Source: Candidatus Woesearchaeota archaeon (GTDB taxonomy: Archaea > Nanobdellota > Nanobdellia > SCGC-AAA011-G17 > UBA489). From it: DNA of 64,000 nucleotides. A model generated the notes under the pieces. The model was not told where the DNA came from. It was given only the letters and a program-made list of their open reading frames with translations, and searched no databases. The stretch covers positions 18,395 through 82,394 of the forward strand of contig CAYFJW010000004.1 of assembly GCA_964343875.1 (NCBI GenBank), given 5' to 3'. The position numbers were made by a program, and so were the translations under genes. Positions within the stretch are counted from its first letter, which is position 1; every line of letters begins with the position of its first letter. Below, piece after piece: positions 542-11,828 of this stretch.

Positions 542-815
542 TCACCTTTTTGTTCGTATAATCTAAGAGAATAAATGTTTATATATTTATGGAGCGTGTA
601 AAGTAACTAGTGAATATTAGGAAGAGTCGAAGAGGAGGGGTGGAAAGGAAAGTTCATGATAGGCCGCTTCCTAGACTTCTTGATCCTTTTCATGCTAGAG
701 GGGTGTTTCCTATTAGGCGTGTGAGGGTTGATAGACCTTACTTCCCAAACAAACCAAAACCTGGGCCAGTTTATTTGGGGCCTGTTAGGAGAGGTAGATA
801 CGTGGGTGTTGCCTA

Positions 816-1532
816 GTGGGGCGTGTCCCCAAACCTGAAGTTCTTGATCAATTAGTAGAAATTAGCTTAGATGAGTTTAACAATGGGCACCACATTAAGG
901 ATCTGCCAGAGTTTAATGTTGCTTTTACAAGATATCCTTTTGAGAGAAAGCCAACTACTGCGAAAGATAGATTGAGCAAGGGCGTTGGTTTTAGAACAGG
1001 TGCTAAAAAGGATGCCTGGATGGAAAAGGCTGAGGCGTTTGCTAAGAGGAATCATAGATTTAGATATTGTGCTTTTGAGAGGACAGAAGATACAGTACTT
1101 AGATTCCGTCGGAAGACATCTGCGATTTCTAGGTTAATTATTGAATCCTACCTTGGTCTTGAACATGAGTATTCTCATCCTGATAAGTTAATAGTTGTAA
1201 TGGATGGCCCTGAATTTGGTAGGGGTGATGGAATGGGGGCAAGATCAAAAGCTGTTGTTGAAGAAAACTTGAGAGAGTATGGGTTGGAGAGCGAAGTCTT
1301 CTTTCGTGTTCGTGCTGACCAAGGTCAAAAACATCCAGCGGCATACATTGCAGATAGACTTGCATATCTGATTGCTGTTATGTATCGTGATAGTCTTCCT
1401 CGTTTGGAGTGGCCATTCCCAGAAAGAAGGGTGGATCTTAGTTTGCCACTTCCAGTTACTGCGGATGAACTAAGGTATATGGCCAGATTGTTAAAAAAGG
1501 GTTCTAGAGGCGGGTCTCACAGCTTTGAATAG
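816..1532 (+). CDS. Hypothetical protein; C-terminal half weakly resembles the DUF3800 / RNase-H-like pattern (IVVMDGPEF ... AAYIADRLAYLIA)
   Basis: 238-aa ORF with GC above the window average and no antisense competitor of comparable length. Motif resemblance is from memory only. Confidence 0.45.
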   Translation: MGRVPKPEVLDQLVEISLDEFNNGHHIKDLPEFNVAFTRYPFERKPTTAKDRLSKGVGFRTGAKKDAWMEKAEAFAKRNHRFRYCAFERTEDTVLRFRRKTSAISRLIIESYLGLEHEYSHPDKLIVVMDGPEFGRGDGMGARSKAVVEENLREYGLESEVFFRVRADQGQKHPAAYIADRLAYLIAVMYRDSLPRLEWPFPERRVDLSLPLPVTADELRYMARLLKKGSRGGSHSFE

Positions 1533-1591
1533 TGGATTCGTATAATATACATTATATGAAATTTTATAAACATTCAATTTATTAAATTCCT

Positions 1592-2224
1592 ATGATCCCA
1601 AGAGATTTAAGGCTGGTCCTAGTGGGAGTAATTAGCACCCTGGTCTTTCTTACTATTGCGCTCTCTCTCATTCTTTACTCTGAAATACTTCGGGAACACC
1701 AAGGAGTTGTAGCCTTTTTATCACTTCTCATATTGATCCTTGTATTCGTAGGAGATAAGTGGTGGGATCGTGAAAGGAGAAGAAAACAAAAGATAAATGC
1801 CTTATTGGCATTGTCAAGGCAGACGGACTATCTCAAGAGGAATCTTAAGTATGTAAAAGGGGCCATCCCTAAAAGGATAATGCCTGTCCATATACTTTCT
1901 TTGTATAACATTTCTTGGGAGCACTTTCCCATCTCTGTAGATGGTAAGAGCACTAGGGATTTGTATGAGCTTGCCACATTCATAGACGATAAGATACGTA
2001 CCCTAAATGAGAGGAGAGCAGAAATACTACAAATAGTACTTACTTACGACACAGTGGAAAGGAAAGAGGCGATGGTGGAAAAGTACTATAAATCTTTTGG
2101 GGAGGCCATAACTGAGGCGCTTGAAGGATTGGTAGATGGCTTAAATGCGATCACTACCATATTTTATAGGTGGGGCATTTACCCTTTAGATGGTTCAACA
2201 AGATTAACCAAATTATTGAAATAG
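1592..2224 (+). CDS. Membrane protein (2 N-terminal TM helices plus soluble domain), hypothetical
   Basis: 210-aa ORF with hydrophobic N-terminus (LVLVGVISTLVFLTIALSLILY, FLSLLILILVFVG). Confidence 0.45.
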   Translation: MIPRDLRLVLVGVISTLVFLTIALSLILYSEILREHQGVVAFLSLLILILVFVGDKWWDRERRRKQKINALLALSRQTDYLKRNLKYVKGAIPKRIMPVHILSLYNISWEHFPISVDGKSTRDLYELATFIDDKIRTLNERRAEILQIVLTYDTVERKEAMVEKYYKSFGEAITEALEGLVDGLNAITTIFYRWGIYPLDGSTRLTKLLK

Positions 2225-2225
2225 G

Positions 2226-3014
2226 GTGAAATTTTTTGATCTTGTTCAAAAAGCTTATTATCTTATCAAAAAGGATAAAACTATGGTATTGAAAGGTGAA
2301 GTTGTTGGCAGGCGGGATATTGAAGAAATTCGGCGACTATTTCTTGTTGCGTTTACAATTAGCATATTTATGCTAATGACTATCGAAAGATTTCTCAACC
2401 TTAAAATTGCAGAGGATATACTCACCCATACACCAAATGAGCTAACTCTGCGTTTTTCAATTGGAGTAGGTATCTATGTTTTTGCGTATCTCTTCTTTGG
2501 GGCCTGGAAGGAGCATCATAAGAACCTAGCCTCTTGCCTGATTTATTCGCTGAAGATAAACATTTTTCTTATGGGGGTTCTCATTCTTCATGCTGGTACG
2601 GTCTCAGTCTCTTACTTATGGGACACCTATTTGGGGTTGATAATTAATGGATGGATTGTTTTCCTAATCAACCATCAAGTTGTGTGGAATGGATTTCCTT
2701 TTCTAACATTCTTTTTTGCATCTTTGGGAGTGATATACGAGAATGTAAAAACATTTAAGCTTCTGGAAGAGGGTTTTTTTGTGTTTCAAATTAAAAAAAT
2801 AATTAAAAGAACATTCTCAAAACCAAGGATTAAAGCTAGTATTCATTTTAGTCTGGTTCTGGGTGTGACATTGTGGGCCACTACAGTCTATAGGGCTGCA
2901 GAGGGTAAACATTGGGCGTTTTATATAGGTGCATGGTTACTAATTGCATTTATCTTGTTAATTTTCGGTGGGTCTTTTTTAGACATTTTAGACAAAGAAA
3001 AAAAGTTCACATAA
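2226..3014 (+). CDS. Polytopic integral membrane protein, hypothetical
   Basis: 262-aa ORF starting 2 nt after the previous stop, with multiple hydrophobic segments. Confidence 0.45.
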   Translation: MKFFDLVQKAYYLIKKDKTMVLKGEVVGRRDIEEIRRLFLVAFTISIFMLMTIERFLNLKIAEDILTHTPNELTLRFSIGVGIYVFAYLFFGAWKEHHKNLASCLIYSLKINIFLMGVLILHAGTVSVSYLWDTYLGLIINGWIVFLINHQVVWNGFPFLTFFFASLGVIYENVKTFKLLEEGFFVFQIKKIIKRTFSKPRIKASIHFSLVLGVTLWATTVYRAAEGKHWAFYIGAWLLIAFILLIFGGSFLDILDKEKKFT

Positions 3015-3075
3015 CATATCTTAGGCGAAGTATAATCCGCCCTGCCAGTAGAGCCCCCAGCGAAGCCGAAAGAGA

Positions 3076-3204
3076 CTATTCAGGCACTTCCTGCCTAAAA
3101 CCGCACTTCTTGCAGTATCTGATGTGGAAGGAACCATCTGAGAATTTATGTTCTCCGTCGTGGAGTTTATCACCACATTCTGGACAATTTTCTTTGAATT
3201 TCAT
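3076..3204 (-). CDS. Small C4 zinc-ribbon protein (42 aa), not in the ORF track
   Basis: Minus-strand ORF MKFKENCPECGDKLHDGEHKFSDGSFHIRYCKKCGFRQEVPE with CPxCG...CKKCG. It overlaps the antisense + ORF 2912..3208, which looks spurious. Confidence 0.5.
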   Translation of the reverse strand: MKFKENCPECGDKLHDGEHKFSDGSFHIRYCKKCGFRQEVPE

Positions 3205-3241
3205 GTGAAAATTACTTGTTAGCAATGCTTAAAAGTTTTAG

Positions 3242-4180
3242 CTATGCTGCCTGGAATTTTGGACTCAAGAATCTTGCACTTTCAAGTATCCGTGGCATGT
3301 TTACTGGGGCAACTTCTTCTGGGTTCTTACCTGAAAGTTGTGCAAGGTCATTAAGCAATCTAACATATGCAGGTGTTACTTCAAAACCGCCCACAACTGG
3401 GGAGAACCTAGTATAATGTCCTGGTTCTTTAGCAGGCCTGTAAACTGCAGGGCATAATTGCGGCTTGTCCATTGTGAGAATTGAATCTACTCCTACGGGG
3501 ATAATGCCTCCCTCTTCACGTATTGCCTGATATTGTCTTGTACGCCTCATGTTTCTGTGTTCCATTTTTTGGTCTTGAATTCCAACGCCTCTGTATGTAA
3601 TGGCTTTTGCAAAATGAGCCTTAACTCTATCTACAAGCTCTCTCTTTTGCGACAAGAATAAATCTCTGTCTTCCAAATACCTTCCCCGTGCTTGGTTTTG
3701 AGCGACAGAGGTAAGAAATTCGTAGTTTTCGGAGTCGCTTAATGCATCAAAGTGGGCAACTGCTTGCCTGAATTCTGCTGTGTCGGGTGTTTGGAATCCT
3801 TGTAATACGTCAGATGTAAGTTGTTTTCTTTTGCTCCTTAGAGCGTCTGTAATTGCTCTATAGACTCTTGTAGCAGAGCTTCCGCTTACAACCTCATCAA
3901 TACCCATGAGATGAATTCCGTGGTCTTCATCAACCACCTCATCTAGAAAATTGCCCATCCAGTCCCTCATGACTAATTGGACTTGAGCAATACCGCTTGA
4001 TGCCGGCATATAGAAAACCTTCTGTGGATCAAAATCCTCACCAACGATGTGCATTGCATCTATGAAGGGTACAGAGCCCATCATGGGAGCTATAATTGCG
4101 TCTGGTGAGCTTTCATGGAATATCTCTGCGGCTTCTGCCATCCCTCGTTTAAAGTCCACTAGCGCTTCTCTAAAATTCAT
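3242..4180 (-). CDS. Hypothetical protein with an N-terminal phosphoribosyltransferase-type (PRTase) fold motif and a C-terminal domain of unknown function
   Basis: IHLMGIDEVVSGSSATRV matches the type-I PRTase PRPP-binding signature (four hydrophobics, D-D/E, two hydrophobics, S/T-G-x-S/T). Local GC is elevated relative to the window. Confidence 0.45.
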   Translation of the reverse strand: MNFREALVDFKRGMAEAAEIFHESSPDAIIAPMMGSVPFIDAMHIVGEDFDPQKVFYMPASSGIAQVQLVMRDWMGNFLDEVVDEDHGIHLMGIDEVVSGSSATRVYRAITDALRSKRKQLTSDVLQGFQTPDTAEFRQAVAHFDALSDSENYEFLTSVAQNQARGRYLEDRDLFLSQKRELVDRVKAHFAKAITYRGVGIQDQKMEHRNMRRTRQYQAIREEGGIIPVGVDSILTMDKPQLCPAVYRPAKEPGHYTRFSPVVGGFEVTPAYVRLLNDLAQLSGKNPEEVAPVNMPRILESARFLSPKFQAA

Positions 4181-4244: not shown

Positions 4245-4898
4245 TTATTTCTTCTTTGGTTCTGGCTCGGGCTCGGCCTCCTTTGGCTGTTTGACTTCGT
4301 TATCCTTGAAATAGGACTTTCCTTTCTCTGTAATGGCTATATAGGTCTGTTTGCCCTTTCTTAGCTTGTGGATGAATCCAGCATCTACGAGGATTCCAAT
4401 GTACTCAGAAACCGTGGATCTTACCTTGTCGTAGGATTTACCAGGGTAGAGGTCAGAAGCCAGCGTTTTTAGAGCAGTCCACTCTTGGCCGGACTCTCTT
4501 TGGAAGGCACCCAACCTAAAAAATATGGCTTTTTGTGTTTCAGTCAAGTCGTCCAAGGGGGTTCGTTCTATTCTCGGAGGTAATTTTTCGTTTTCATAGT
4601 CATAGTATGGTTTTTCTTTTGAGCTCTCTCGAGTTTTTGGCTGCTTTTGAAGGGAATTTTCCCTGTCTGCTAGGTAGGACATGACTTGGCCGATCTCCTC
4701 TATCCTGGATTCCATGTTTTTGAATCTGTCACTGTATTCTTCGTCCCTTGTTTTGAAAAAAGAAAGCCAATCACGGACTACTTTGATGTCCGACTTGATC
4801 CTTGTGAAGGAATGTTTCAAGTTTTCGGAGATTTGATTGACGTGATCGAGCGCTTTGTTAACTTCCGACCTCTTTTTTCCAAAGAACAAAAACCCCAT
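4245..4898 (-). CDS. Coiled-coil plus C-terminal winged-helix (MarR/TrmB-like) DNA-binding protein; paralog of 5516..6157
   Basis: C-terminal TETQKAIFFRLGAFQRESGQEWTALKTLASDLYPGKSYDKVRSTVSEYIGILVDAGFIHKL has a wHTH pattern. The N-terminal half is heptad-like and the tail is lysine-rich. Confidence 0.55.
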   Translation of the reverse strand: MGFLFFGKKRSEVNKALDHVNQISENLKHSFTRIKSDIKVVRDWLSFFKTRDEEYSDRFKNMESRIEEIGQVMSYLADRENSLQKQPKTRESSKEKPYYDYENEKLPPRIERTPLDDLTETQKAIFFRLGAFQRESGQEWTALKTLASDLYPGKSYDKVRSTVSEYIGILVDAGFIHKLRKGKQTYIAITEKGKSYFKDNEVKQPKEAEPEPEPKKK

Positions 4899-4902
4899 GC
4901 GA

Positions 4903-5110
4903 TTTAGACGTAGACGTTATTTATAAATGTAACTCATGTGTAGGAGACGTCCCTCTACATTCGTAGACGGGTGTAGACGTGTCGTAGACGGTTCGTAGAC
5001 GCGTTAATCGACGCTTTTTATAAAGAAAATGACCATTTACAGACGGGATCGACGCATTTTTGAAGGTTTTTCGAGAAATTCGAAAAGTGAGAAAAAGGTC
5101 ATCGACGCGT
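4903..5110. repeat. Iteron array: at least 6 direct copies of (C)GTAGACG followed by 3 copies of ATCGACGC, in the intergenic region between two paralogous wHTH genes
   Basis: tagacgtagacg (4905-4916); gtagacg at about 4963, 4973, 4984 and 4994; cctctac (inverted) at 4951; atcgacgc at about 5007, 5047 and 5101. Confidence 0.65.
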
Positions 5111-5515
5111 AAAAATTTTTGAAAAAAAGTTGAAAAAAGGCTAAATTCTTTCGGTTGAGGTTTTGTGAGGGTTAGAAGGGAGCCTGAGGAGGGATGAAAA
5201 AAGTAGAAAAAAGGTGCTGAAAGGTACGCTTATTTTGGAAAAGGGAGGAATAGGAAAGAGGGTGGTCAGGAATACCCTAGAATGGGAGAAGTGAGAAAGA
5301 AAAATAGGTATTGTTGGTGGACGGGGAGGAGCCGAGAAAGGTGCAGGATCTGCCCTATTTCCCATAAGTGAGAGCTAGTCATGAGAAGAGGGCTCCAAAA
5401 GTATCTATTTTAGGCGTTTTTGTGAGAAAATGATGCGTCGACGGAGGGTTTGAAGAGTGATTAACTCGGAAGAATACTGCTTTATTTCGAAAAAGTGAGA
5501 GATGAATTGAAAGAA

Positions 5516-6157
5516 CTACTCAAAAAGCGTAGTTTGATCAGTTGGATTCTCTCTGAGACGGATCAATTTATTGAGAAGGTTTAGGTCGTGAAAGTCTTCT
5601 TTTACCAAAAGTGAGGTTTTACGGTTGAAATGCCTCTCTTTCTTTAATGGGAGGCCTTTGGCCATTAGGCGGTTTGCAACGCCTCTAACGGTCGGTTCTG
5701 TTAGATTTAGGTGATTTGCAAGAAGTGAGTAGTTGACTTCTCCTTGCTTTTCTAGGTCTAAAATAGCCATGAACACCGAGAATTCCCTATCTGTGAGGGT
5801 TTTGAACTGTTTCTCAAAGTCCCTCTCTAGGGCCTGTAGGGTCTTTTTCGGAATGTTTTGTTGTCTTTCGTTGATGGTTGTTGACTGTTGATCGTTGACT
5901 GTTGATCGTTGATGATCGTTGATGACCCCTTTATTTCCAGTGGAGGCCTCTTTAAAGGAGGCTAAAATGGTCTTTATTTCTGTTATACCTTCTTTTAAAT
6001 CGTTTATTTTTAAATTAATCTCCTTAATCTCTGATTTATTGGATTTGGAGGTGCTTTCAAGGCTTCCTAGGCCTGTTTTTAAACTTGAAATGTCGTTTTT
6101 TACATTAGAGAAGGAATTCCTTATCTTTTCCTTAAAGGAGCTATCATCTTCTGCCAT
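5516..6157 (-). CDS. Coiled-coil plus winged-helix DNA-binding protein with an internal Q/N/D-rich tract; paralog of 4245..4898
   Basis: C-terminal REFSVFMAILDLEKQGEVNYSLLANHLNLTEPTVRGVANRLMAKG is a wHTH. The internal VINDHQRSTVNDQQSTTINERQQ tract is encoded by GTTGATCGTTGAC tandem repeats at 5870-5930. Confidence 0.55.
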   Translation of the reverse strand: MAEDDSSFKEKIRNSFSNVKNDISSLKTGLGSLESTSKSNKSEIKEINLKINDLKEGITEIKTILASFKEASTGNKGVINDHQRSTVNDQQSTTINERQQNIPKKTLQALERDFEKQFKTLTDREFSVFMAILDLEKQGEVNYSLLANHLNLTEPTVRGVANRLMAKGLPLKKERHFNRKTSLLVKEDFHDLNLLNKLIRLRENPTDQTTLFE

Positions 6158-6270
6158 TTTAGAGGGGATATTGGGGGCATTAGAATTATATAAGTCTTAC
6201 TTGTTGATCACTGTTGTTCATTGTTGATGATCGTTGATCATTGTTGACTAACCCCTTTATTTCCCATGGA
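5870..6270. repeat. GTTGAT(C/G)GTTGA(C/T) tandem repeats, with a degenerate second copy of the 5870-5945 segment at 6187-6270 in the intergenic space
   Basis: tgacccctttatttccagtgga (5925-5945) recurs as taacccctttatttcccatgga (6248-6270). The second copy encodes MGNKGVSQQ-stop, a truncated duplicate of the TGNKGVINDHQ segment of the 5516..6157 protein. Confidence 0.6.
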
Positions 6271-6784
6271 AATCCTTAGAAATCTTGTAGTAGAGCGCCA
6301 GGAAAGCCTCTTTTTGGGGTTTTAGGCCTACGGCGAGGAGTTTTTTAACTAGGTCTTGCCCAACGACCTTTTCTGTGCCTGTAGGAAGCTCGTAGCGCAC
6401 GATTTGGACAAGGGTTGGGCGGGATATGAATCCCTCATTTACCTGCAAACAGAGCTTCTGACCTGTTTCAATGCTTTTCACGACTAAATTGAATAGATTT
6501 ACCCTGATATCTCCACGGATGAATATATCTTTTTTGGCTTTAGCGAAGCCATTTGATAGGAGGAGCTCCTCTAGCATCGCTTTTATGGTTTGTTTGGCTG
6601 ACTGTTTGGGATTGTTTAGTGTTGATTGTTGATGATTGTTTAGTTCGATTACACGGCCTAGATAGGCTGAAACCTTTTGTTTAGGGTGCCTCTTGCTTCT
6701 TTTACGTCGTTTTGTAAGAACTAGGTATGCATATTTCCTTATACTTCCAGAAGTGTTTTTTCTTGTCTTAGTTCGTATATACAT
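6257..6784 (-). pseudogene. IS1634-family-like (IS4 superfamily) transposase N-terminal fragment, 175 aa, truncated at the duplication junction
   Basis: N-terminus MYIRTKTRKNTSGSIRKYAYLVLTKRRKRS...KQKVSAYLGRVIEL resembles the IS1634 transposase N-terminal pattern (MFxRxKxxKNGK.Y.YLVES.R...K..Q..LxxLGR). Full-length IS1634 transposases are about 450-550 aa, and there is no DDE domain here. Family resemblance is from memory. Confidence 0.4.
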
Positions 6785-6836: not shown

Positions 6837-7289
6837 TTAGGATGCCTTTGGCTTGCCTTTTTCCGTAGCTTTTTCGGATTCCTTGGACTTTACTGCTATC
6901 CTTGGTAGGGATATGTGTGGTGGTAATCCTACTTGTTGTGATAATGAGAGTGCCATGACCCCGCATTTTGAGAAAATGTAATTTACTAATTGTCCAGAAA
7001 GTGAGGGATCAATCTTTGAGTGCTTGTCCCAATCCTCTAGGACCTTGTCTCTGGTTGCTTTGTCTGTTAGGAAGTGGATATGACCTATGATCTCTGTTTT
7101 GGCTACGTTTGGTAAGTAATCTACTTTGTATGAGAATTTGAATTTGAGTAGTGATTGGCCTGTTATTCCGTCAGGTGTTGGGTATTCTGCAATATCTAAG
7201 AACTTTATTCCGTTTTTTGCTTCTATCTTGCCTGTTATTTGGCCTGTCTTGTCTACGGATATTTTGTCCAGAGTAAAGTGAATTATCAT
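6837..7289 (-). CDS. Hypothetical protein
   Basis: 150-aa ORF with typical local codon usage; no recognisable motifs. Confidence 0.4.
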   Translation of the reverse strand: MIIHFTLDKISVDKTGQITGKIEAKNGIKFLDIAEYPTPDGITGQSLLKFKFSYKVDYLPNVAKTEIIGHIHFLTDKATRDKVLEDWDKHSKIDPSLSGQLVNYIFSKCGVMALSLSQQVGLPPHISLPRIAVKSKESEKATEKGKPKAS

Positions 7290-7324: not shown

Positions 7325-9205
7325 CTATTTGGCTCTCTTAATCTTTCTTAGTAGGCTCTCGTGGCCCTTCCACTCGAGTGCCTCTTCGAGGATTGTTTCA
7401 AGTTTATCCGCTAGTATGATTTTTACCTTTCTTTTATTTTCTGGGCTTAGAAGGATATCATTGGCATTTGCTTTTGGTACAATTACTGTTTTGATTCCTG
7501 CCTGGATTGCAGCTTCAATCTTTTGTGTGACTCCTCCGACTGCTAGAACTTCACCTCTAACTGATAATGATCCTGTCATGGCTACATTTTGTTTTATTGG
7601 TACTTTCTTTAATGCTGAGATAATTGCTGTTGCTACTGCGATTGATGCTGAATCCCCTTCTACGCCACCGGACTCGGATGCAGTTTGTAGGAATTGGATA
7701 AAAATATCATATTTTTCTTTGATATCTTCTCCGAAGTATTTTAAGATGATTGCTGAAACATTTTGAACTGCTTCTTTTGCTATTTCTCCAAGCTTACCTG
7801 TTGCTATGAAGTCAGATCTCTTTCCACCAGGGGTAACTTCTGATTCAATTGGTAAAACTAAGCCGGAGAAGTATGAATCTGATCCCATTACTGCTAGTCC
7901 GTTTACTCGACCTACTCGAGATCCAGTTGTAACAATTACTTCGTATTTCTTTTTGTTTTCAATATACTTGTCTACTATTTGTTGTTCTAGTGTTCTTGCG
8001 AATTTCTTAGCGTTGATTACATGGATGGGTTGGACATATTTTGATTTTTGTTCAAGTGCTAAATCTCCTGCTGCCCTCACTAGGCCACCTAGCTCTCTTA
8101 ATCTAAGTGTGAGTTTCTTAGATGTTCCAGACCTTATTCTTGCTTCTTGGACTATTGTATCAACTGCTTCTTTTGTGAAGTGCGGGATTTTTTTATCTTT
8201 GTTAACTTCTTGTGCTACGAAGACTGCTAATTTGTATTGGTTTTCTGGAGTGTCATTCATTGAATGATTCATGTTTATTTCATAGCCATAACCTCTTATC
8301 CTGGATCTCAATGCCGGGTTCATTCTCTTTATTGTATCGGGGGTTCCAGCTGCTACTAAAATAAAGTCTGTTGGTGCTTCTTCTGAACGAACCATTGCAC
8401 CCGATGATCTTTCTGATTGCCCTGTTATTGGATATTTTCTTTCTTGCATGCATGTAAGTATCTCTTGTTGTGTTGCTGGGTCCATGTTGCCAACTTCATC
8501 TATGAATAATACTCCCTTGTTTGCTTTGTGTATCATCCCTGGAACTAGCCTTTCGTATGCTGGTGTTCCTAATCCTCCACTTTGTAATGGGTCGTGTAAT
8601 ACATCTCCTAAAAGTGCTCCTGCGTGACTTCCTGTTGCGTCAATGAAAGGTGCTTTTTCTTTTCTTGAATTGTCTATTAACATCTTAGGGACTTTTACTC
8701 CCTTTCTTGCTTTTTTATTTAAATTGAGGAATAAGATGAATATTGCTATGAACATCATGGATGAAATTAAGGATGCTGCCGCCATAATATCTCCATATTG
8801 TTTTCTAACCCACCATGGAGAGAATATTGATATTGCTATTAAGACATAGAAGAAGATCATTTGACCTTTGAATTGTTTTAAGGATTCTATTTTGAATTTG
8901 TTAACGTGTTTTGTTCCTTCTCCTCTTGGGAATGTTTTGATTATTGGATTGTGTTCATCTGATGGGTTGTCAAAGGATAAAACGTCATCTAATTCACTCT
9001 TGGGAATAAGTTCAGCCAGTGCTTGACCGGTCAAAGATTTACCTGTTCCAGGTTCTCCAATTAAAAGAACGTTTCTTCTTTGTTTTGCAGCTTTTCTTAT
9101 AATATCGACCGCTTCTTCTTGACCAACAATTTGGTTAACGGTAGATGAACTAGTCTCTATGTCTTTAGTTGTTTTAAACTTCTTAACAGATTTGGAACTA
9201 GCCAT
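7325..9205 (-). CDS. lonB: Archaeal membrane-bound ATP-dependent Lon protease (LonB)
   Basis: Walker [10 protein letters not shown]; a membrane-insertion segment with 2 TM helices inside the AAA+ module; C-terminal Lon proteolytic domain with catalytic Ser context ([19 protein letters not shown] ... [24 protein letters not shown]); 626 aa. Confidence 0.92.
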
Positions 9206-9231: not shown

Positions 9232-9495
9232 TTAAAGTATGTCTTCTTCAGATACAACCACGAAGTCCCCAATTGCAATAACTGAAGAGTATGGAATAAG
9301 AAGGCTGTTATTCGGATCTCTTTCAAGGTCTAATGCTTCAGTGTAAGTTGTTGCGTTTTTTAGCACTATTTGCATTAGCTCGCCTGTTCTTACTTCAAAG
9401 CTTATGTTGCCAACCTCTCCAAATCTTTTGCCAGATTTAGTTACAACGGTTTTACCTAGAAGTTGTTTTGAGTAGTTTTTTTCTTCTTCTGCCAT
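9232..9495 (-). CDS. PRC-barrel domain protein, likely starting at the internal Met MAEEEKNY
   Basis: [36 protein letters not shown] fits the PRC-barrel pattern. The upstream 30 codons of the track ORF overlap the neighbouring gene. Confidence 0.5.
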
Positions 9496-9559
9496 TTTAC
9501 TTAATTTAACCCCATTTGGTATATAAATCTTTTTGTGTTTGTTTTTGTTTTTAAAGGCC

Positions 9560-10207
9560 TTAGACGTTTGATAAAACTGAATCAATAAATGGTTTAGGGA
9601 ATGCCGACAATAAGGAGATTGCCTTAATTTTGGGTGTTATTGTTACCCTTTTTTCCCTGTGTTCATTTAAAAAGATGGATAGTTTTGTTTTGTCTTGAAG
9701 GTTGTTTAGTATGGTCAGTATTGAAATTGTGAATGCTGAGTCAATATCTTCTTGGGATTCACTATTAAGGGATTCTAGGATTTCTTCTTTTGTGAAATTT
9801 ACTCCTTCGGTTATAGATATCTCTTCTGAGAGGAGATTTTCTAGTGATTGGTCTGAGAAGATGAATATTTTGAAGTATTGGTCTGTTAGGACTTCATTGT
9901 TGTTTGAGAAGTCTTCTTTTAGTGTGGATAGTTCTTCCTCTGAGTATGTGCTTGGTTTAGAGTCTAGGAAGTTGATGGACACTGCTGATTTGTAGGTGTT
10001 TTCCTTTTCATAGATAAATAAGGAGTTAGAGGTTTGTAATTGGCTTAGGCTTTTGGCGTCTGAAACAACCACTGCTACGATTATTAATGAAATTATAAAG
10101 AATATTACAAATGTTATGAAAATGGCCCTTGTTACGCTTTTTATTATGAAATAAGCGATCACAAATATGATTGCTGCTATAATTGGAATCAAATAAAAAA
10201 GAGCCAT
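9560..10207 (-). CDS. Membrane-anchored protein (2 N-terminal TM helices), hypothetical
   Basis: 215-aa ORF with hydrophobic N-terminus (LIPIIAAIIFVIAYFII, FITFVIFFIISLIIVAVVV). Confidence 0.45.
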   Translation of the reverse strand: MALFYLIPIIAAIIFVIAYFIIKSVTRAIFITFVIFFIISLIIVAVVVSDAKSLSQLQTSNSLFIYEKENTYKSAVSINFLDSKPSTYSEEELSTLKEDFSNNNEVLTDQYFKIFIFSDQSLENLLSEEISITEGVNFTKEEILESLNSESQEDIDSAFTISILTILNNLQDKTKLSIFLNEHREKRVTITPKIKAISLLSAFPKPFIDSVLSNV

Positions 10208-10610
10208 GGCTGTTTAAAAAAGAAGTAAGTTATAAATCTGTTGATAGAGTCACACCTTGATTTCTTATGGAATAAAAATTAAGAGAAAAAAGGTGTGGAT
10301 TAAGAGTAGAAAACGTAAAAGTAAAGAAGAAGGTCTGTATTTACTGTTTTTTGTATTTTATTATATTTTACTTATAAGATTAATTATTATATTATATTAT
10401 ATATTATAATATTTATTTTATTATTTATATTTTCTATTTATTATTTTATTTTTTGATTGTTGATGAGATTGGTGGTGATTAGGATGTTGATTGTTTCCGG
10501 GAATTTCTATTTTTGTTTATAAATAATATCTCCATTGGAAACTATGGTGTGAGAGTTTTATTTGGTATCACAGATATACTTAAATAAAATCTGCAGTTTT
10601 AGCAGGATTA
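10207..10610. promoter_or_regulatory. Candidate chromosomal replication origin (oriC): two inverted ORB-like boxes flanking an AT-rich unwinding element, immediately upstream of cdc6/orc1
   Basis: ORB-like tccattggaaactatggtgtgag at 10531-10553 (+). Its inverted partner tccataagaaatcaaggtgtgac is the reverse complement of 10247-10272. An AT-only tract lies at about 10370-10450. The core ctCCAtTGGAAAc matches the archaeal mini-ORB consensus TCCAGTGGAAAC with one mismatch. Confidence 0.6.
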
Positions 10611-11828
10611 ATGGTAGATGTTAAGAATTTTCTGAGAGATTATGCGAAAAAAGAGAGTTTATTCAAAAATAAGAAGGTTTTACAATCTAACTACACTCCT
10701 GCTAAGGTTCCATACAGAGAAGATCAAATCAATGTTCTTGCAGGTATTCTTGCACCTTCCTTGCGTATGGAGAGACCAAGTAATATTTTTCTTTATGGTA
10801 AGACTGGAACTGGTAAAACACTTGCGATCAAGCATGTTACTGATCAAATAAGCGATGTTGCTAAAGAAAGCAAACTTAATTTGAGAGTAATATATCTCAA
10901 TTGTAAGCTAAAGAGGATTGCTGATACAGAATACAGGTTAATTGCACAAATTTCAAGGGAATTAGGTCATGAGATACCTCCTACAGGGTTGCCTACTGAT
11001 GAAGTTTACAAAATATTCGTTAAAACTGTTGAAAAGGAAAAGATGCTACTCCTTTTAGTTTTGGATGAAATTGATGAGGTTGTAAAAAATACAGGAGATA
11101 AGATTTTGTATAATTTAACAAGATTGAATTCTGAATTGGAAAATAGTGAGATATCTATTGTTGGAATTAGTAATGATTTAATGTTTATTGATCAAGTTGA
11201 CCCGAGAGTGAAGAGTAGTTTAAGTGAGGAAGAACTTGTTTTTCCACCATACAATGCTATACAATTACAAAAAATATTGAAAGAAAGGTCAGATATATCT
11301 TTTGAGAAGAGTGTTATTGGTGAGGGCGTTATTGAGAAGTGTGCAGCTTATGCTGCTAAAGAGCATGGTGATGCTAGAAGGGCATTAGAGTTATTGAGGG
11401 TTGCTGGAGAGTTAGCTGAGCGAAATAACTCTGAAAAAATTGCAGTTAAGTTTATAGATCAGGCCGAGGAAAAAATTGAAAGAGACAGAGTTGTGGATAT
11501 TGTTTCTACACAACCTAAACAATTTAAAATAACACTGTATAGTATTTTACAGTTCTCAAATTTATGTTCAAAAAATGGAAATTCCCAAGACATATACACA
11601 GGTGATATCTACGAATTGTACAAAGAAAATTGCTTAAAATGCGGCACGAAACCCCTAACACAAAGACGAATTGGTGATATTATAGCAGAATTAGATATGT
11701 TAGGCATAATCAACGCTAGGGTGATAAGCAAAGGGAGGTATGGTAGGACGCGGAGGATTACGTTGGGAGTTCCTGAAAACATCACGAAGAAGATTAACGA
11801 TATGTTAAAGGAAGGACTTGGTTTATGA
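10611..11828 (+). CDS. cdc6: Orc1/Cdc6 replication initiator
   Basis: AAA+ Walker A LYGKTGTGKT, Walker B LLLVLDEIDE, sensor and C-terminal winged helix; 405 aa; placed beside the predicted origin. Confidence 0.92.
   Translation: MVDVKNFLRDYAKKESLFKNKKVLQSNYTPAKVPYREDQINVLAGILAPSLRMERPSNIFLYGKTGTGKTLAIKHVTDQISDVAKESKLNLRVIYLNCKLKRIADTEYRLIAQISRELGHEIPPTGLPTDEVYKIFVKTVEKEKMLLLLVLDEIDEVVKNTGDKILYNLTRLNSELENSEISIVGISNDLMFIDQVDPRVKSSLSEEELVFPPYNAIQLQKILKERSDISFEKSVIGEGVIEKCAAYAAKEHGDARRALELLRVAGELAERNNSEKIAVKFIDQAEEKIERDRVVDIVSTQPKQFKITLYSILQFSNLCSKNGNSQDIYTGDIYELYKENCLKCGTKPLTQRRIGDIIAELDMLGIINARVISKGRYGRTRRITLGVPENITKKINDMLKEGLGL

What the first reader, a model, noticed from the sequence alone, without database searches (positions are those of the whole stretch)
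4903..5110. Dense iteron array between two paralogous coiled-coil wHTH genes
Six or more direct copies of GTAGACG (two abutting at 4905-4916, four spaced 10-11 bp apart at 4963-5000, i.e. one helical turn), an inverted CCTCTAC, then three ATCGACGC copies spaced about 40-50 bp. The spacing at one helical turn and the placement between two wHTH genes is characteristic of plasmid or viral replication-origin iterons, or of a centromere-like partition site bound by the flanking wHTH proteins. A 270-bp purine-rich tract (5130-5400, + strand) follows.
Basis: seen in the sequence. Interest (0 to 1): 0.6.

Follow-up and report, generated by a model that had tools for sequence, protein, structure and literature searches.

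The report
Cognate repeat array of origin-proximal regulator
The repeats are real: they form a conserved docking array for the DNA-binding protein encoded right next to them in a tiny (DPANN) archaeon, sitting on that gene's promoter 5 kb from the true chromosomal replication origin, and they are neither a plasmid nor a viral origin.

Summary
Eleven GACG cores lie on one strand in 4907-5104. Four TCGTAGACG units are spaced 10-11-11 bp apart, and three ATCGACGC copies are spaced 41 and 53 bp apart. No other such cluster occurs in the 64 kb window or in about 250 kb from 14 related genomes.

The window is a Woesearchaeota chromosome. Its canonical origin (an inverted ORB pair around a 97% AT stretch, next to orc1/cdc6-polD) is at 10207-10611, not here.

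The array abuts the TATA box of gene 4245..4898, which encodes a coiled-coil plus winged-helix protein. It is found upstream of every homologue examined. Across the wider family (392 representative clusters), the repeat sequence changes together with the protein's recognition helix while the roughly 11-bp period is kept.

Best reading: these are cognate iterons on which the neighbouring protein assembles cooperatively, covering its own promoter for autoregulation. A centromere-like or anchoring role near the origin, as in StbA/stbS, TubR/tubC or ParR/parC, is possible but unproven, and no motor NTPase is present.

The locus also holds a second strand-specific repeat (CTCACTTTT) and two ORB-like elements, one inside a coding region. 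Neither is explained.

The parts
4245..4898 (-). Gene for the 217-aa protein. It has an N-terminal aromatic-basic peptide (MGFLFFGKK), one long helix (residues 9-82), a disordered linker and a C-terminal winged helix (114-194). It is the proposed binder of the array.
   Evidence: ORF and translation. AF2 model, pLDDT about 90 in the wHTH. Foldseek gives a generic wHTH: PerR, ArsR, MarR, TubR, AspA. Family alignments. 392 representative clusters.
4904..4916 (-). Proximal operator: CGTCTACGTCTAA on the - strand, between the TATA box and the start codon (-18 to -6).
   Evidence: Sequence. Present in the close relatives L006-L008 but absent in L009-L012.
4920..4928 (-). TATA box (TTTATAAAT) of the 217 gene. 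Its start lies 29 nt before the ATG, which implies a leaderless or near-leaderless mRNA.
   Evidence: The TATA-to-ATG distance is 27-31 nt in 12 of the 13 related loci where the scan found a TATA (38 nt to a GTG in L017). Promoter function is inferred, not measured.
4940..4958 (-). Degenerate copy (CGTCTCCTAC) and inverted copy (GTAGAGGG) that fill the gap between the core array and the TATA/BRE.
   Evidence: Conserved in L006-L008.
4961..5001 (-). Core array: four 9-bp units CGTCTACGA (one is CGTCTACAC) with 2-bp spacers. Start-to-start spacing is 11, 11 and 10 bp. It spans -103 to -63 from the ATG.
   Evidence: The same four to seven units are present in all VRST-helix homologues.
5005..5027 (-). 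Fifth unit (GCGTCGATTA) fused to a second TATA-like module (TTCTTTATAAAAAG). This duplicates the proximal module of TATA followed by a CGTC site.
   Evidence: Conserved in L006-L012. Its activity and direction as a promoter are unknown.
5040..5110 (-). Distal sites: GCGTCGATCCCGTCTG (5040-5055) and ACGCGTCGATGA (5099-5110). They lie 41 and 53 bp further out, about 4 and 5 helical turns. The second is followed 16 nt downstream on the - strand (at lower window coordinates) by a CTCAC motif.
   Evidence: Conserved in L006-L008.
5433..5446 (.). Outlying palindromic site CCGTCGACGC, again paired with TTTTCTCAC (5422-5426).
   Evidence: Conserved in L006 and L007 but not in L008.
5087..5499 (-). Six CTCAC cores lie on the - strand at 5087, 5165, 5291, 5368, 5422 and 5495. 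Consensus TAACyCTCACTTTTcc.AAAT.rAG. Role unknown.
   Evidence: In the homologous intergenic regions of 15 loci there are 53 sense and 0 antisense copies. Spacing is conserved. The motif does not change where the iterons do.
5516..6157 (-). Paralogous 213-aa coiled-coil plus wHTH gene upstream of the intergenic region.
   Evidence: hhalign probability 94.6%. Syntenic in most loci. In L156 it is inverted away while the array stays with the 217-type gene.
10207..10611 (.). Context: the canonical chromosomal origin. ORB-like elements at 10250-10272 (-) and 10529-10557 (+) are inverted around a 97% AT stretch (about 10354-10460), next to orc1/cdc6 (10611-11828).
   Evidence: The same architecture is present in the 8 related loci examined.

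Best explanation
The array is the cognate binding site (iterons) of the coiled-coil winged-helix protein encoded immediately downstream (4245..4898).

Proposed mechanism:
- Each 9-bp unit CGTC(T/G)ACGA plus its 2-bp spacer takes one winged helix.
- The 11-bp period puts successive units on one face of the DNA.
- Several coiled-coil dimers, whose DNA-binding domains hang on roughly 30-residue flexible linkers, therefore bind side by side and cooperatively from about -210 to -5 of the start codon.
- The complex reaches the BRE/TATA. In this lineage it also reaches the TATA-to-start interval, so it controls the protein's own promoter, most likely by negative autoregulation.

The complex is a unique, origin-proximal feature of the chromosome and is not a replication origin.

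Shown:
- The cluster is unique in the sequence examined.
- It is conserved with the gene.
- The repeat sequence covaries with the recognition helix.
- Its position against the TATA box is constant.
- The canonical oriC lies elsewhere.

Inferred:
- Physical binding.
- Stoichiometry.
- The sign of regulation.
For: Uniqueness:
- Five of 6 GTAGACG and 3 of 3 ATCGACGC in the window lie here.
- This is the only dense GACG window in 64 kb.
- It is the only cluster in about 250 kb from 14 related loci, always upstream of the homologue.
- No phased site pairs occur elsewhere in the window.

Conservation with the gene:
- The array is present upstream of all 12 genome loci and of L043, and of distant homologues L155-L157 at 33-39% identity.
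- In L156 the paralogue was moved away by an inversion, yet the array stayed with the 217-type gene.

Covariation:
- Helix VRST[VL]SEY goes with CGTCKACGA. This holds in 8 loci of the matrix, including the 31%-identical L163.
- Helix [VI]RPMIS[ST]Y goes with CGTAACTTAC. This holds in two loci whose proteins are 39% identical.
- Helix IRS[TA]ITQF goes with GTTTACYKAAC. This holds in two loci at 48% identity.
- Helix VKAMISNY goes with CGTTAAGT.
- Helix VKSMVCDY goes with GTTCAYTGAAC.
- Helix VKGILSQY goes with CAAAACGTTTT, three copies at 11 bp.
- The motif-by-locus matrix is nearly diagonal. Spacings are mostly 11 bp or about 2x11 bp.

Promoter position:
- The TATA-to-ATG distance is 27-31 nt in 12 of 13 scored loci.
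- The arrays end about 5-40 nt before the TATA.

Protein:
- The model shows a confident wHTH, a long helix and a disordered linker.

Precedent:
- ParR/parC of R1 has two sets of five 11-bp iterons flanking the promoter, about one dimer per iteron, and autoregulates (PMC2241845).
- StbA/stbS has 9-bp repeats plus 2-bp spacers, an 11-bp cycle, in its own promoter (doi 10.1101/2022.04.29.490116).
Against: - There are no binding data. All evidence is comparative.
- The helical phase of the array relative to the TATA differs by about 4 bp between lineages, so strict stereospecific contact with TBP/TFB is not indicated.
- Orientation of units is not fixed. L155 has inverted pairs, and L156 has the opposite orientation.
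- A protein whose only detectable target is its own promoter is an odd stand-alone regulator. This suggests the complex itself, or the non-DNA-binding half of the protein, carries the real function.
- Only about 64 kb of this genome could be scanned, so other sites elsewhere cannot be excluded.
Confidence: 0.62

Rival explanations
1. The protein-iteron pair is the same, but its main purpose is structural. The array would be a chromosomal centromere-like or anchoring site about 5 kb from oriC. The multi-protein complex would be the handle by which the origin region is positioned or segregated, possibly tethered through the conserved N-terminal aromatic-basic peptide. Promoter coverage would be a by-product, as in plasmid partition operons.
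For: - The anatomy matches parC, stbS and tubC. These have split arrays of one-turn direct repeats in the promoter of the binding protein's own gene. For tubC there is also a roughly 500-bp repeat-rich non-coding region with two kinds of iterons (PMC2241845; doi 10.1101/2022.04.29.490116; PMC6009700).
- The site is unique in the sequence examined.
- Protein and site co-diversify rapidly. This is typical of self-contained centromere/CBP pairs (PMC9426499) and implies few other targets.
- The location between orc1/cdc6-oriC and a Xer-like recombinase is constant across the family.
- The family-wide N-terminal M.FWFFKKK motif is followed by a long coiled coil.
- StbA shows that a segregation system without its own NTPase exists.
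Against: - No ParA, actin-like or tubulin-like gene lies in the conserved block.
- Membrane binding of the N-terminus is only a resemblance recalled from other systems and was not tested.
- Structural hits to TubR and AspA are no better than hits to ordinary regulators.
- There are no functional data for any DPANN archaeon.
Confidence: 0.22
2. The array is bound by a different factor, such as the 213-aa paralogue, Orc1/Cdc6 or an unlinked regulator. In this reading it merely regulates the 217 gene, and the 217 protein does not recognise it.
For: - The paralogue is adjacent in most loci.
- Composite CGTCGAYGA + TTTTCTCAC sites suggest that two factors bind side by side.
- Binding has not been measured.
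Against: - Iteron sequence tracks the recognition helix of the 217-type protein in six helix classes. Two of these classes are replicated in independent loci.
- The array stays with the 217-type gene when the paralogue is displaced.
- ORB elements in these genomes look quite different.
Confidence: 0.1
3. The array is a set of replication-origin iterons. It would be a second origin, an auxiliary part of oriC, or the remnant origin of an integrated plasmid or virus.
For:
- Proximity to oriC (5.3 kb).
- ORB-like elements at 5925-5945 and 6251-6271.
- A tyrosine recombinase and a variable gene set lie beyond the 217 gene in this genome.
Against: - There is no unwinding element. Maximum AT in 4800-6400 is 0.78, against 0.97 at the cdc6-adjacent origin, which is by far the least stable DNA in the window.
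- No Rep or initiator domain was found in the neighbours.
- The array belongs to the conserved chromosomal side of the boundary, whereas the variable genes lie on the other side of the 217 gene.
- The recombinase is a conserved Xer-like neighbour across the family, not a marker of an insertion.
- The array is locked to a TATA box.
Confidence: 0.04
4. The element acts at the RNA level. The array would be transcribed from the distal TATA-like module (5014-5027) as a repeat-containing 5' leader, or the intergenic region would encode a non-coding RNA.
For: - A second TATA + CGTC module lies upstream of the core array and is conserved in L006-L012.
- Both strands of the intergenic region have mildly negative folding z-scores, about -2.3.
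Against: - There is no Rfam match.
- Units occur in either orientation in distant loci. This fits duplex DNA recognition, not RNA.
- Many T-runs on both strands would terminate archaeal transcription.
- Between the motifs, the sequence is unconserved even among close relatives.
Confidence: 0.02

Closest known systems
StbA / stbS of plasmid R388
   Same: - 9-bp direct repeats with 2-bp spacers give an 11-bp cycle.
- The repeats are arranged in sets within the promoter of the binding protein's own gene.
- The binder is an HTH protein with a second, non-DNA-binding domain.
- It autoregulates.
- No dedicated NTPase is needed (doi 10.1101/2022.04.29.490116).
   Different: - StbA is bacterial and plasmid-borne, with a PadR-like N-terminal HTH. 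It also has other stbDR operators on the plasmid.
- Here the protein has a C-terminal wHTH behind a long coiled coil, the site is chromosomal and archaeal, and no homology was detected.
TubR / tubC (type III partition; pBtoxis, C. botulinum c-st)
   Same: - The centromere-binding protein is a winged helix.
- The centromere is always upstream of tubR and is split into blocks of direct repeats.
- In c-st there is a roughly 500-bp repeat-rich non-coding region with two different iterons.
- The complex covers the promoter (PMC6009700).
- TubR chains are among the Foldseek hits.
   Different: - TubR works with the tubulin-like TubZ encoded in the same operon. No such gene is present here.
- The structural similarity is at the level of any wHTH (E about 0.02-0.04).
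ParR / parC of plasmid R1 (type II partition)
   Same: - Two sets of five 11-bp iterons flank the promoter.
- About one dimer binds per iteron, cooperatively.
- It combines a centromere role with autoregulation (PMC2241845).
- Cognate ParR-parC specificities diversify between related systems (PMC9426499), as seen here.
   Different: ParR is a ribbon-helix-helix protein with the actin-like ParM as partner, and the system is on bacterial plasmids.
Archaeal SegAB (Sulfolobales) and pNOB8 AspA-ParB-ParA
   Same: - Both are archaeal site-specific DNA-binding proteins whose strongest sites lie just upstream of their own operon (PMC12284271).
- AspA is a wHTH that builds a superhelical complex.
- AspA appears as a weak sequence hit (E 0.13).
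   Different: - SegB is a ribbon-helix-helix protein that recognises a 13-bp palindrome (TCTAGA-S-TCTAGA) at about 40 chromosomal sites, and it works with the ParA-type SegA.
- AspA spreads from a palindrome and has ParB/ParA partners.
- None of these partners or motifs is present here.
Iteron-type plasmid origins (RepA, RepE, pi)
   Same: Winged-helix proteins bind direct repeats next to their own gene and autoregulate.
   Different: Those iterons are usually described as about 17-22 bp (from my own knowledge, not checked here). They adjoin an AT-rich unwinding region and host-initiator boxes on a mobile replicon. None of these features was found here.

Membership tests
Iteron-type plasmid or viral replication origin | AT-rich DNA-unwinding element next to the iterons | tested here: not met
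   Maximum AT in any 80-nt window of 4800-6400 is 0.78. The only outlier in the window is 10354-10460 (0.97), next to cdc6.
Iteron-type plasmid or viral replication origin | Adjacent Rep-type initiator gene | tested here: not met
   Pfam, NCBIfam and PHROG scans of all neighbours gave no Rep, primase or helicase initiator. The only trace is a 0.007 E-value coiled-coil match to a plasmid DNA-binding protein model, far below its cut-off.
Iteron-type plasmid or viral replication origin | Located on a mobile replicon or integrated element | tested here: not met
   The array lies in a block syntenic with orc1/cdc6, PolD and LonB across Woesearchaeota. The viral-contig scan gave only high-GC chance hits.
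Archaeal oriC (ORB + DUE + Orc1/Cdc6) | ORB or mini-ORB elements inverted around a DUE beside orc1/cdc6 | tested here: not met
   These features are found at 10207-10611, not at 4903-5110. The array units bear no resemblance to the ORBs of these genomes.
Promoter-embedded centromere plus centromere-binding protein (parC/ParR, tubC/TubR, stbS/StbA type) | Array of short direct repeats at about one helical turn, in sets, in or upstream of the promoter of the binding protein's own gene | tested here: met
   Four core units are spaced 10-11 bp, with further units at about 4 and 5 turns and one between the TATA and the ATG.
Promoter-embedded centromere plus centromere-binding protein (parC/ParR, tubC/TubR, stbS/StbA type) | Cognate specificity between the protein and its repeats | tested here: met
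   The recognition helix and the iteron sequence covary across six helix classes. This is indirect evidence, not a binding assay.
Promoter-embedded centromere plus centromere-binding protein (parC/ParR, tubC/TubR, stbS/StbA type) | Partner motor NTPase (ParA, ParM or TubZ) in the same operon. This is not required for the StbA type. | tested here: not met
   No such domain is found in the conserved block or among the downstream genes.
Promoter-embedded centromere plus centromere-binding protein (parC/ParR, tubC/TubR, stbS/StbA type) | The site stabilises or positions the replicon that carries it | not testable with these tools
   This needs a stability or localisation experiment.
SegAB archaeal chromosome segregation | RHH SegB, ParA-type SegA, 13-bp palindrome TCTAGA-S-TCTAGA | tested here: not met
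   The protein is a wHTH. The repeats are direct and of different sequence. No ParA gene lies nearby. Motif taken from PMC12284271.
Autoregulated winged-helix transcription factor (MarR, ArsR, TrmB-like) | wHTH fold | tested here: met
   The AF2 model and Foldseek hits to PerR, ArsR and MarR. There are sub-threshold Pfam hits only, so the protein is not a member of a curated family.
Autoregulated winged-helix transcription factor (MarR, ArsR, TrmB-like) | Operator overlapping its own core promoter | tested here: met
   The array ends about 5-40 nt before the TATA in the loci scored. In this lineage a copy also lies between the TATA and the ATG.
Autoregulated winged-helix transcription factor (MarR, ArsR, TrmB-like) | One or two palindromic operators bound by a single dimer | tested here: not met
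   There are 8-12 mostly direct units over about 200 bp.

The most novel reading that the evidence does not exclude
The array, its coiled-coil winged-helix protein and the adjoining 600-bp repeat region form a previously undescribed, NTPase-less chromosomal centromere or origin-anchoring module of DPANN (Nanobdellota/Woesearchaeota) archaea. In this reading a membrane- or partner-binding N-terminal peptide and a long coiled coil tether a unique nucleoprotein complex. That complex lies 5 kb from oriC, beside ORB-like elements and the Xer recombinase gene, and would position or segregate the replication-origin region.
Probability: 0.25. Interest if true: 0.85.

Novelty: new variant of a known kind. 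Interest (0 to 1): 0.6.

Why it matters
Chromosome segregation and cell-cycle control are essentially unknown in DPANN archaea and poorly known in archaea generally. SegAB is the only described machine.

This locus gives a concrete and experimentally simple handle:
- It is a small protein family with 392 representative clusters.
- In 11 of the 13 contexts that reach far enough upstream it sits between orc1/cdc6-oriC and a Xer-like recombinase.
- Each member has its own predictable DNA target.

The natural helix-iteron covariation amounts to a ready-made specificity code for a winged-helix domain. It also provides a set of orthogonal protein-DNA pairs.

Even in the mundane reading, as an autoregulated regulator, two points stand. 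It also places the true oriC of these genomes.

Tried and rejected
- Pattern scans of the viral and metagenome collections with CGTCKACGAMNNGTCKACGA. Only L043 was a true homologous locus, so they say nothing about arrays in other contexts.
- Two earlier scan attempts failed on the 14-base rule.
- Rfam at gathering and at permissive thresholds gave nothing for the intergenic region.
- Single-strand folding of both strands gave only z of about -2.3, and no conserved small ORF was found. An RNA or peptide gene is therefore not supported.
- The sigma-70 promoter and terminator scan is uninformative for an archaeon.
- PDB sequence and fold searches of the 217-aa protein gave only coiled-coil noise and generic wHTH matches. 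AspA (E 0.13) and TubR hits are not significant evidence of relationship.
- I tested whether the CTCACTT motif is a half-ORB, since it shares AACyCTCAC with the G-string end of the oriC ORBs. Enrichment at oriC itself is weak (1.2 against 0.67 per kb), so I left the idea as unsupported.
- I tested whether the helical phase between the array and the TATA is conserved. It is conserved within lineages but shifted by about 4 bp between them.
- A phylum-wide single-copy 'winged-HTH' core orthogroup is mentioned in a 2026 Nanobdellota preprint. It could not be linked to this family because no sequence is given.
Full report
**What is in the sequence**

Between the start codon of gene 4245..4898 (minus strand; the ATG is complementary to 4896-4898) and gene 5516..6157 lies a 617-bp ORF-free gap. 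It is the longest such gap inside the window, longer than the 403-bp origin gap.

Reading the plus strand from the gene outwards, the elements are:
- TTAGACGTAGACG at 4904-4916.
- A TATA box, ATTTATAAAT, at 4919-4928.
- A degenerate copy GTAGGAGACG (4940-4949) and an inverted copy CCCTCTAC (4951-4958).
- Four units TCGTAGACG / GTGTAGACG at 4961-5001, with start-to-start spacing of 10, 11 and 11 bp.
- ATCGACGC at 5007, fused to a second TATA-like element (5014-5027).
- CAGACGGGATCGACGC at 5040-5055.
- ATCGACGC at 5101.
- An outlying GCGTCGACGG at 5435-5444.

**Is it more than chance?**

- Exact GTAGACG occurs six times in 64 kb, five of them here (1.4 expected).
- All three ATCGACGC copies are here (0.2 expected).
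- The GACG core occurs 11 times on one strand in 4907-5104. No other 210-nt window reaches five. The genome is also CpG-poor (observed/expected 0.53).
- Pairs of near-consensus 9-mers in 10-12 bp register occur only here, and never in 50 Markov shuffles.
- The region is base-for-base identical in five assemblies from different runs.
- The adjoining purine-rich tract is the most purine-rich stretch of the window.

**Where we are**

The window encodes Orc1/Cdc6 (10611-11828), both PolD subunits, LonB and other archaeal chromosomal genes. Homologues of the local proteins come from Woesearchaeota / 'Nanoarchaeota' MAGs.

The gap 10207-10611 is a textbook archaeal origin:
- Two ORB-like elements (TTCCATAAGAAATCAAGGTGTGA on the minus strand, CTCCATTGGAAACTATGGTGTGAGAG on the plus strand) are inverted around about 110 bp of 97% AT.
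- That AT stretch is by far the least stable duplex in the window.
- The same arrangement recurs in every related locus that reaches cdc6.

The finding lies 5.3 kb from that origin and has no unwinding element of its own.

**Conservation and synteny**

The 217-aa product of 4245..4898 has the following parts (AF2; alignments):
- a short aromatic-basic N-terminus (MGFLFFGKK);
- one long helix (residues 9-82);
- a disordered linker;
- a confident winged helix (114-194).

The 213-aa product of 5516..6157 has the same plan and is a true paralogue (hhalign probability 94.6%, E 7e-8).

In 12 species-level genomes the order is PolD - orc1/cdc6 - oriC - (215 aa) - PRC barrel - LonB - 150 - 175 - 213 - [about 600 bp] - 217. 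This order is preserved down to about 40% identity. What follows the 217 gene is variable.

Upstream of every homologue there are four to seven CGTC(T/G)ACGA units at 10-12 bp spacing, then a TATA box, then the ATG. The TATA start lies 27-31 nt before the ATG in 12 of the 13 scored loci.

In about 250 kb from these 14 loci, the only cluster of the motif is this one.

More distant homologues (33-39% identity) keep the array. One of them (L156) has had the 150-213 block inverted away and an arginyl-tRNA synthetase gene placed upstream. Even so, a phased array of the same core in the opposite orientation remains against the TATA of the 217-type gene. The array therefore travels with the downstream gene, not with the paralogue.

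**The decisive comparison**

An exhaustive profile search finds 392 representative clusters of this family, almost all full-length. Distant members keep the N-terminal M.FWFFKKK motif, the SF.N(V/I)K.D motif, the coiled coil and the wHTH. Their recognition helices differ.

I fetched eight such genes with their flanks. Each is again preceded by three to seven short repeats ending 10-40 nt before a TATA box. Spacings are mostly 11 bp or about 22 bp. The repeat sequence differs by helix class:

| Recognition helix | Repeat | Where seen |
|---|---|---|
| VRST[VL]SEY | CGTCKACGA | Window lineage, plus the 31%-identical L163 |
| [VI]RPMIS[ST]Y | CGTAACTTAC | Two loci whose proteins are 39% identical |
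| IRS[TA]ITQF | GTTTACYKAAC | Two loci, 48% identical |
| VKAMISNY | ATCGTTAAGT | One locus |
| VKSMVCDY | GTTCAYTGAAC | One locus |
| VKGILSQY | CAAAACGTTTT, three copies at exactly 11 bp | One locus |

A motif-by-locus count matrix is almost perfectly diagonal. This is the pattern expected if the winged helix of each protein reads the repeats in front of its own gene. It is hard to explain otherwise.

**Mechanism proposed**

- One winged helix binds per 9-bp unit.
- The 11-bp period aligns units on one face of the helix.
- Coiled-coil dimers with about 30-residue flexible linkers can reach neighbouring units in either orientation. This would explain why direct, inverted and reversed arrangements all occur.
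- Cooperative occupation runs from the distal sites (4 and 5 turns out) through the core array to the BRE/TATA. In this lineage it continues to the TATA-to-start interval, which is the classical position for archaeal repression.

I therefore favour negative autoregulation as the minimum function.

Binding, stoichiometry and the sign of regulation are inferences. Uniqueness, conservation, covariation and promoter position are shown.

**Beyond autoregulation**

Three things suggest the complex itself may be the product:
- No second target is seen in the sequence available.
- Protein and site co-drift freely, which a regulator with many targets could not do.
- The gene keeps a fixed address across the family. 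It sits after orc1/cdc6-PRC-LonB and directly before, or within a few genes of, a Xer-like tyrosine recombinase. In this genome the recombinase lies five variable genes further on.

The anatomy matches promoter-embedded centromeres:
- R1 parC: two sets of five 11-bp iterons flanking the promoter, and autoregulation (PMC2241845).
- R388 stbS: 9-bp repeats plus 2-bp spacers, an HTH protein and no dedicated NTPase (doi 10.1101/2022.04.29.490116).
- tubC: upstream of a wHTH gene, split, with two iteron types in a roughly 500-bp non-coding region (PMC6009700).

Against this reading:
- No motor NTPase is linked.
- The membrane-anchor reading of the N-terminus is only a resemblance.
- Structural matches to TubR and AspA are no better than matches to ordinary repressors.

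I give this reading about one chance in four.

**Rivals rejected or down-weighted**

- A plasmid, viral or second origin is contradicted by the chromosomal synteny, the lack of an unwinding element, the lack of a Rep gene and the lock to a TATA box.
- Binding by another factor is made unlikely by the covariation and by the L156 rearrangement.
- An RNA-level role lacks support.

**Other features of the locus**

The 'purine-rich tract' carries a second repeat family. There are six CTCAC cores on the gene-sense strand, with consensus TAACyCTCACTTTTcc.AAAT.rAG. In the homologous regions of 15 loci, 53 copies are sense and none antisense, and the spacing is conserved. Unlike the iterons, this motif does not change in distant lineages. 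It is therefore read by something conserved. Its role is unexplained.

Two ORB-like elements, each followed by 10-nt repeats, lie at 5868-5945 and 6197-6271. The first of them is inside the 213 ORF. Both are under DNA-level constraint.

**Verdict**

It is wrong about a plasmid or viral origin. The system is a new, archaeal, chromosomal variant of the iteron-operator / centromere-like kind. It is notable for its phylum-wide protein-DNA covariation and its fixed origin-proximal address.

Noticed in passing
window 5868-5945 (-) and 6197-6271 (-): There are two copies of an ORB-like element (TCCAnnGGAAATAAAGGGGT), each followed by three to five repeats of about 10 nt (ATCAACGATC / CAACAGT).

- One copy lies inside the 213-aa ORF, where it encodes STGNKGV plus an N/Q/S/T linker. 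The other overlaps the stop of the 175-aa gene, 114 nt upstream of the 213 ATG.
- The offsets (-114 and +212) are identical in four of the seven genomes compared.
- Lineage-specific repeat variants are shared by the two copies within one genome.
- In L009 the internal copy is read in a different frame, but the DNA is kept.
- The element uses the rare Ser codon TCC (6% of Ser codons genome-wide) in 11 of 12 orthologues and GGG in 12 of 12.

This points to a DNA-level function inside a coding region.
   Followed up: partly
window 5087-5499 (-), and homologous regions of L006-L017, L155, L157, L159, L160, L164: A strand-specific repeat, TAACyCTCACTTTTcc.AAAT.rAG, occurs 3-8 times per intergenic region.

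- In 15 loci, 53 copies are sense and 0 antisense.
- Spacing is conserved at about 126-135, 125, 77 and 78 nt.
- The motif is unchanged in lineages whose iterons have changed.
- The first copy lies 20-40 nt after the stop of the 213-type gene.
- Twice it is paired with a CGTCGAYGA site 16 nt upstream.

Its function is unknown. Candidates are tandem terminators or an insulator, sites for the paralogue, or something else.
   Followed up: partly
window 10207-10611: This is the canonical chromosomal replication origin. Inverted ORB-like elements (10250-10272 and 10529-10557) flank a 97% AT stretch, immediately upstream of orc1/cdc6-DP1-DP2. It also carries TTGATTGTTGATGA (10453-10466), which resembles the repeats that follow the ORB-like elements at about 5.9 and 6.2 kb.
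   Followed up: yes
left of window position 1 (L001 14520-15224), and L157, L159-L163, L165: A Xer-like tyrosine recombinase gene (PF00589 with SAM-like N-domains) is a constant neighbour of the 217-type gene across the family. It is often convergent and abutting. In this genome five non-conserved genes of unknown function (window 610-4180) are inserted between the two. The region just past the 217 gene therefore looks like a variable or insertion-prone spot.
   Followed up: partly
window 6257-6784 (-) and 6837-7289 (-): The 175-aa and 150-aa proteins have no Pfam, NCBIfam or PHROG match, yet they are syntenic with the wHTH pair across the clade. The 175-aa protein begins with a very basic segment (MYIRTKTRKNTSGSIRKYAYLVLTKRRKRSKRHPKQK) and carries its own NNHQQST stretch encoded by the same GTTGAT-type DNA repeat.
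   Followed up: no
window 9232-9585 (-) and 7325-9205 (-): A PRC-barrel protein gene and LonB lie immediately next to oriC in 11 of the 13 related loci that extend that far. From memory (not checked here), PRC-barrel proteins have recently been linked to archaeal cell division. If so, this origin-proximal block may be a cell-cycle gene island.
   Followed up: no
whole window: GC skew is positive along almost the whole plus strand (31 of 32 two-kb bins), whatever the gene orientation. It is weaker where genes are on the minus strand. It therefore cannot be used here to place the origin at kilobase resolution.
   Followed up: no
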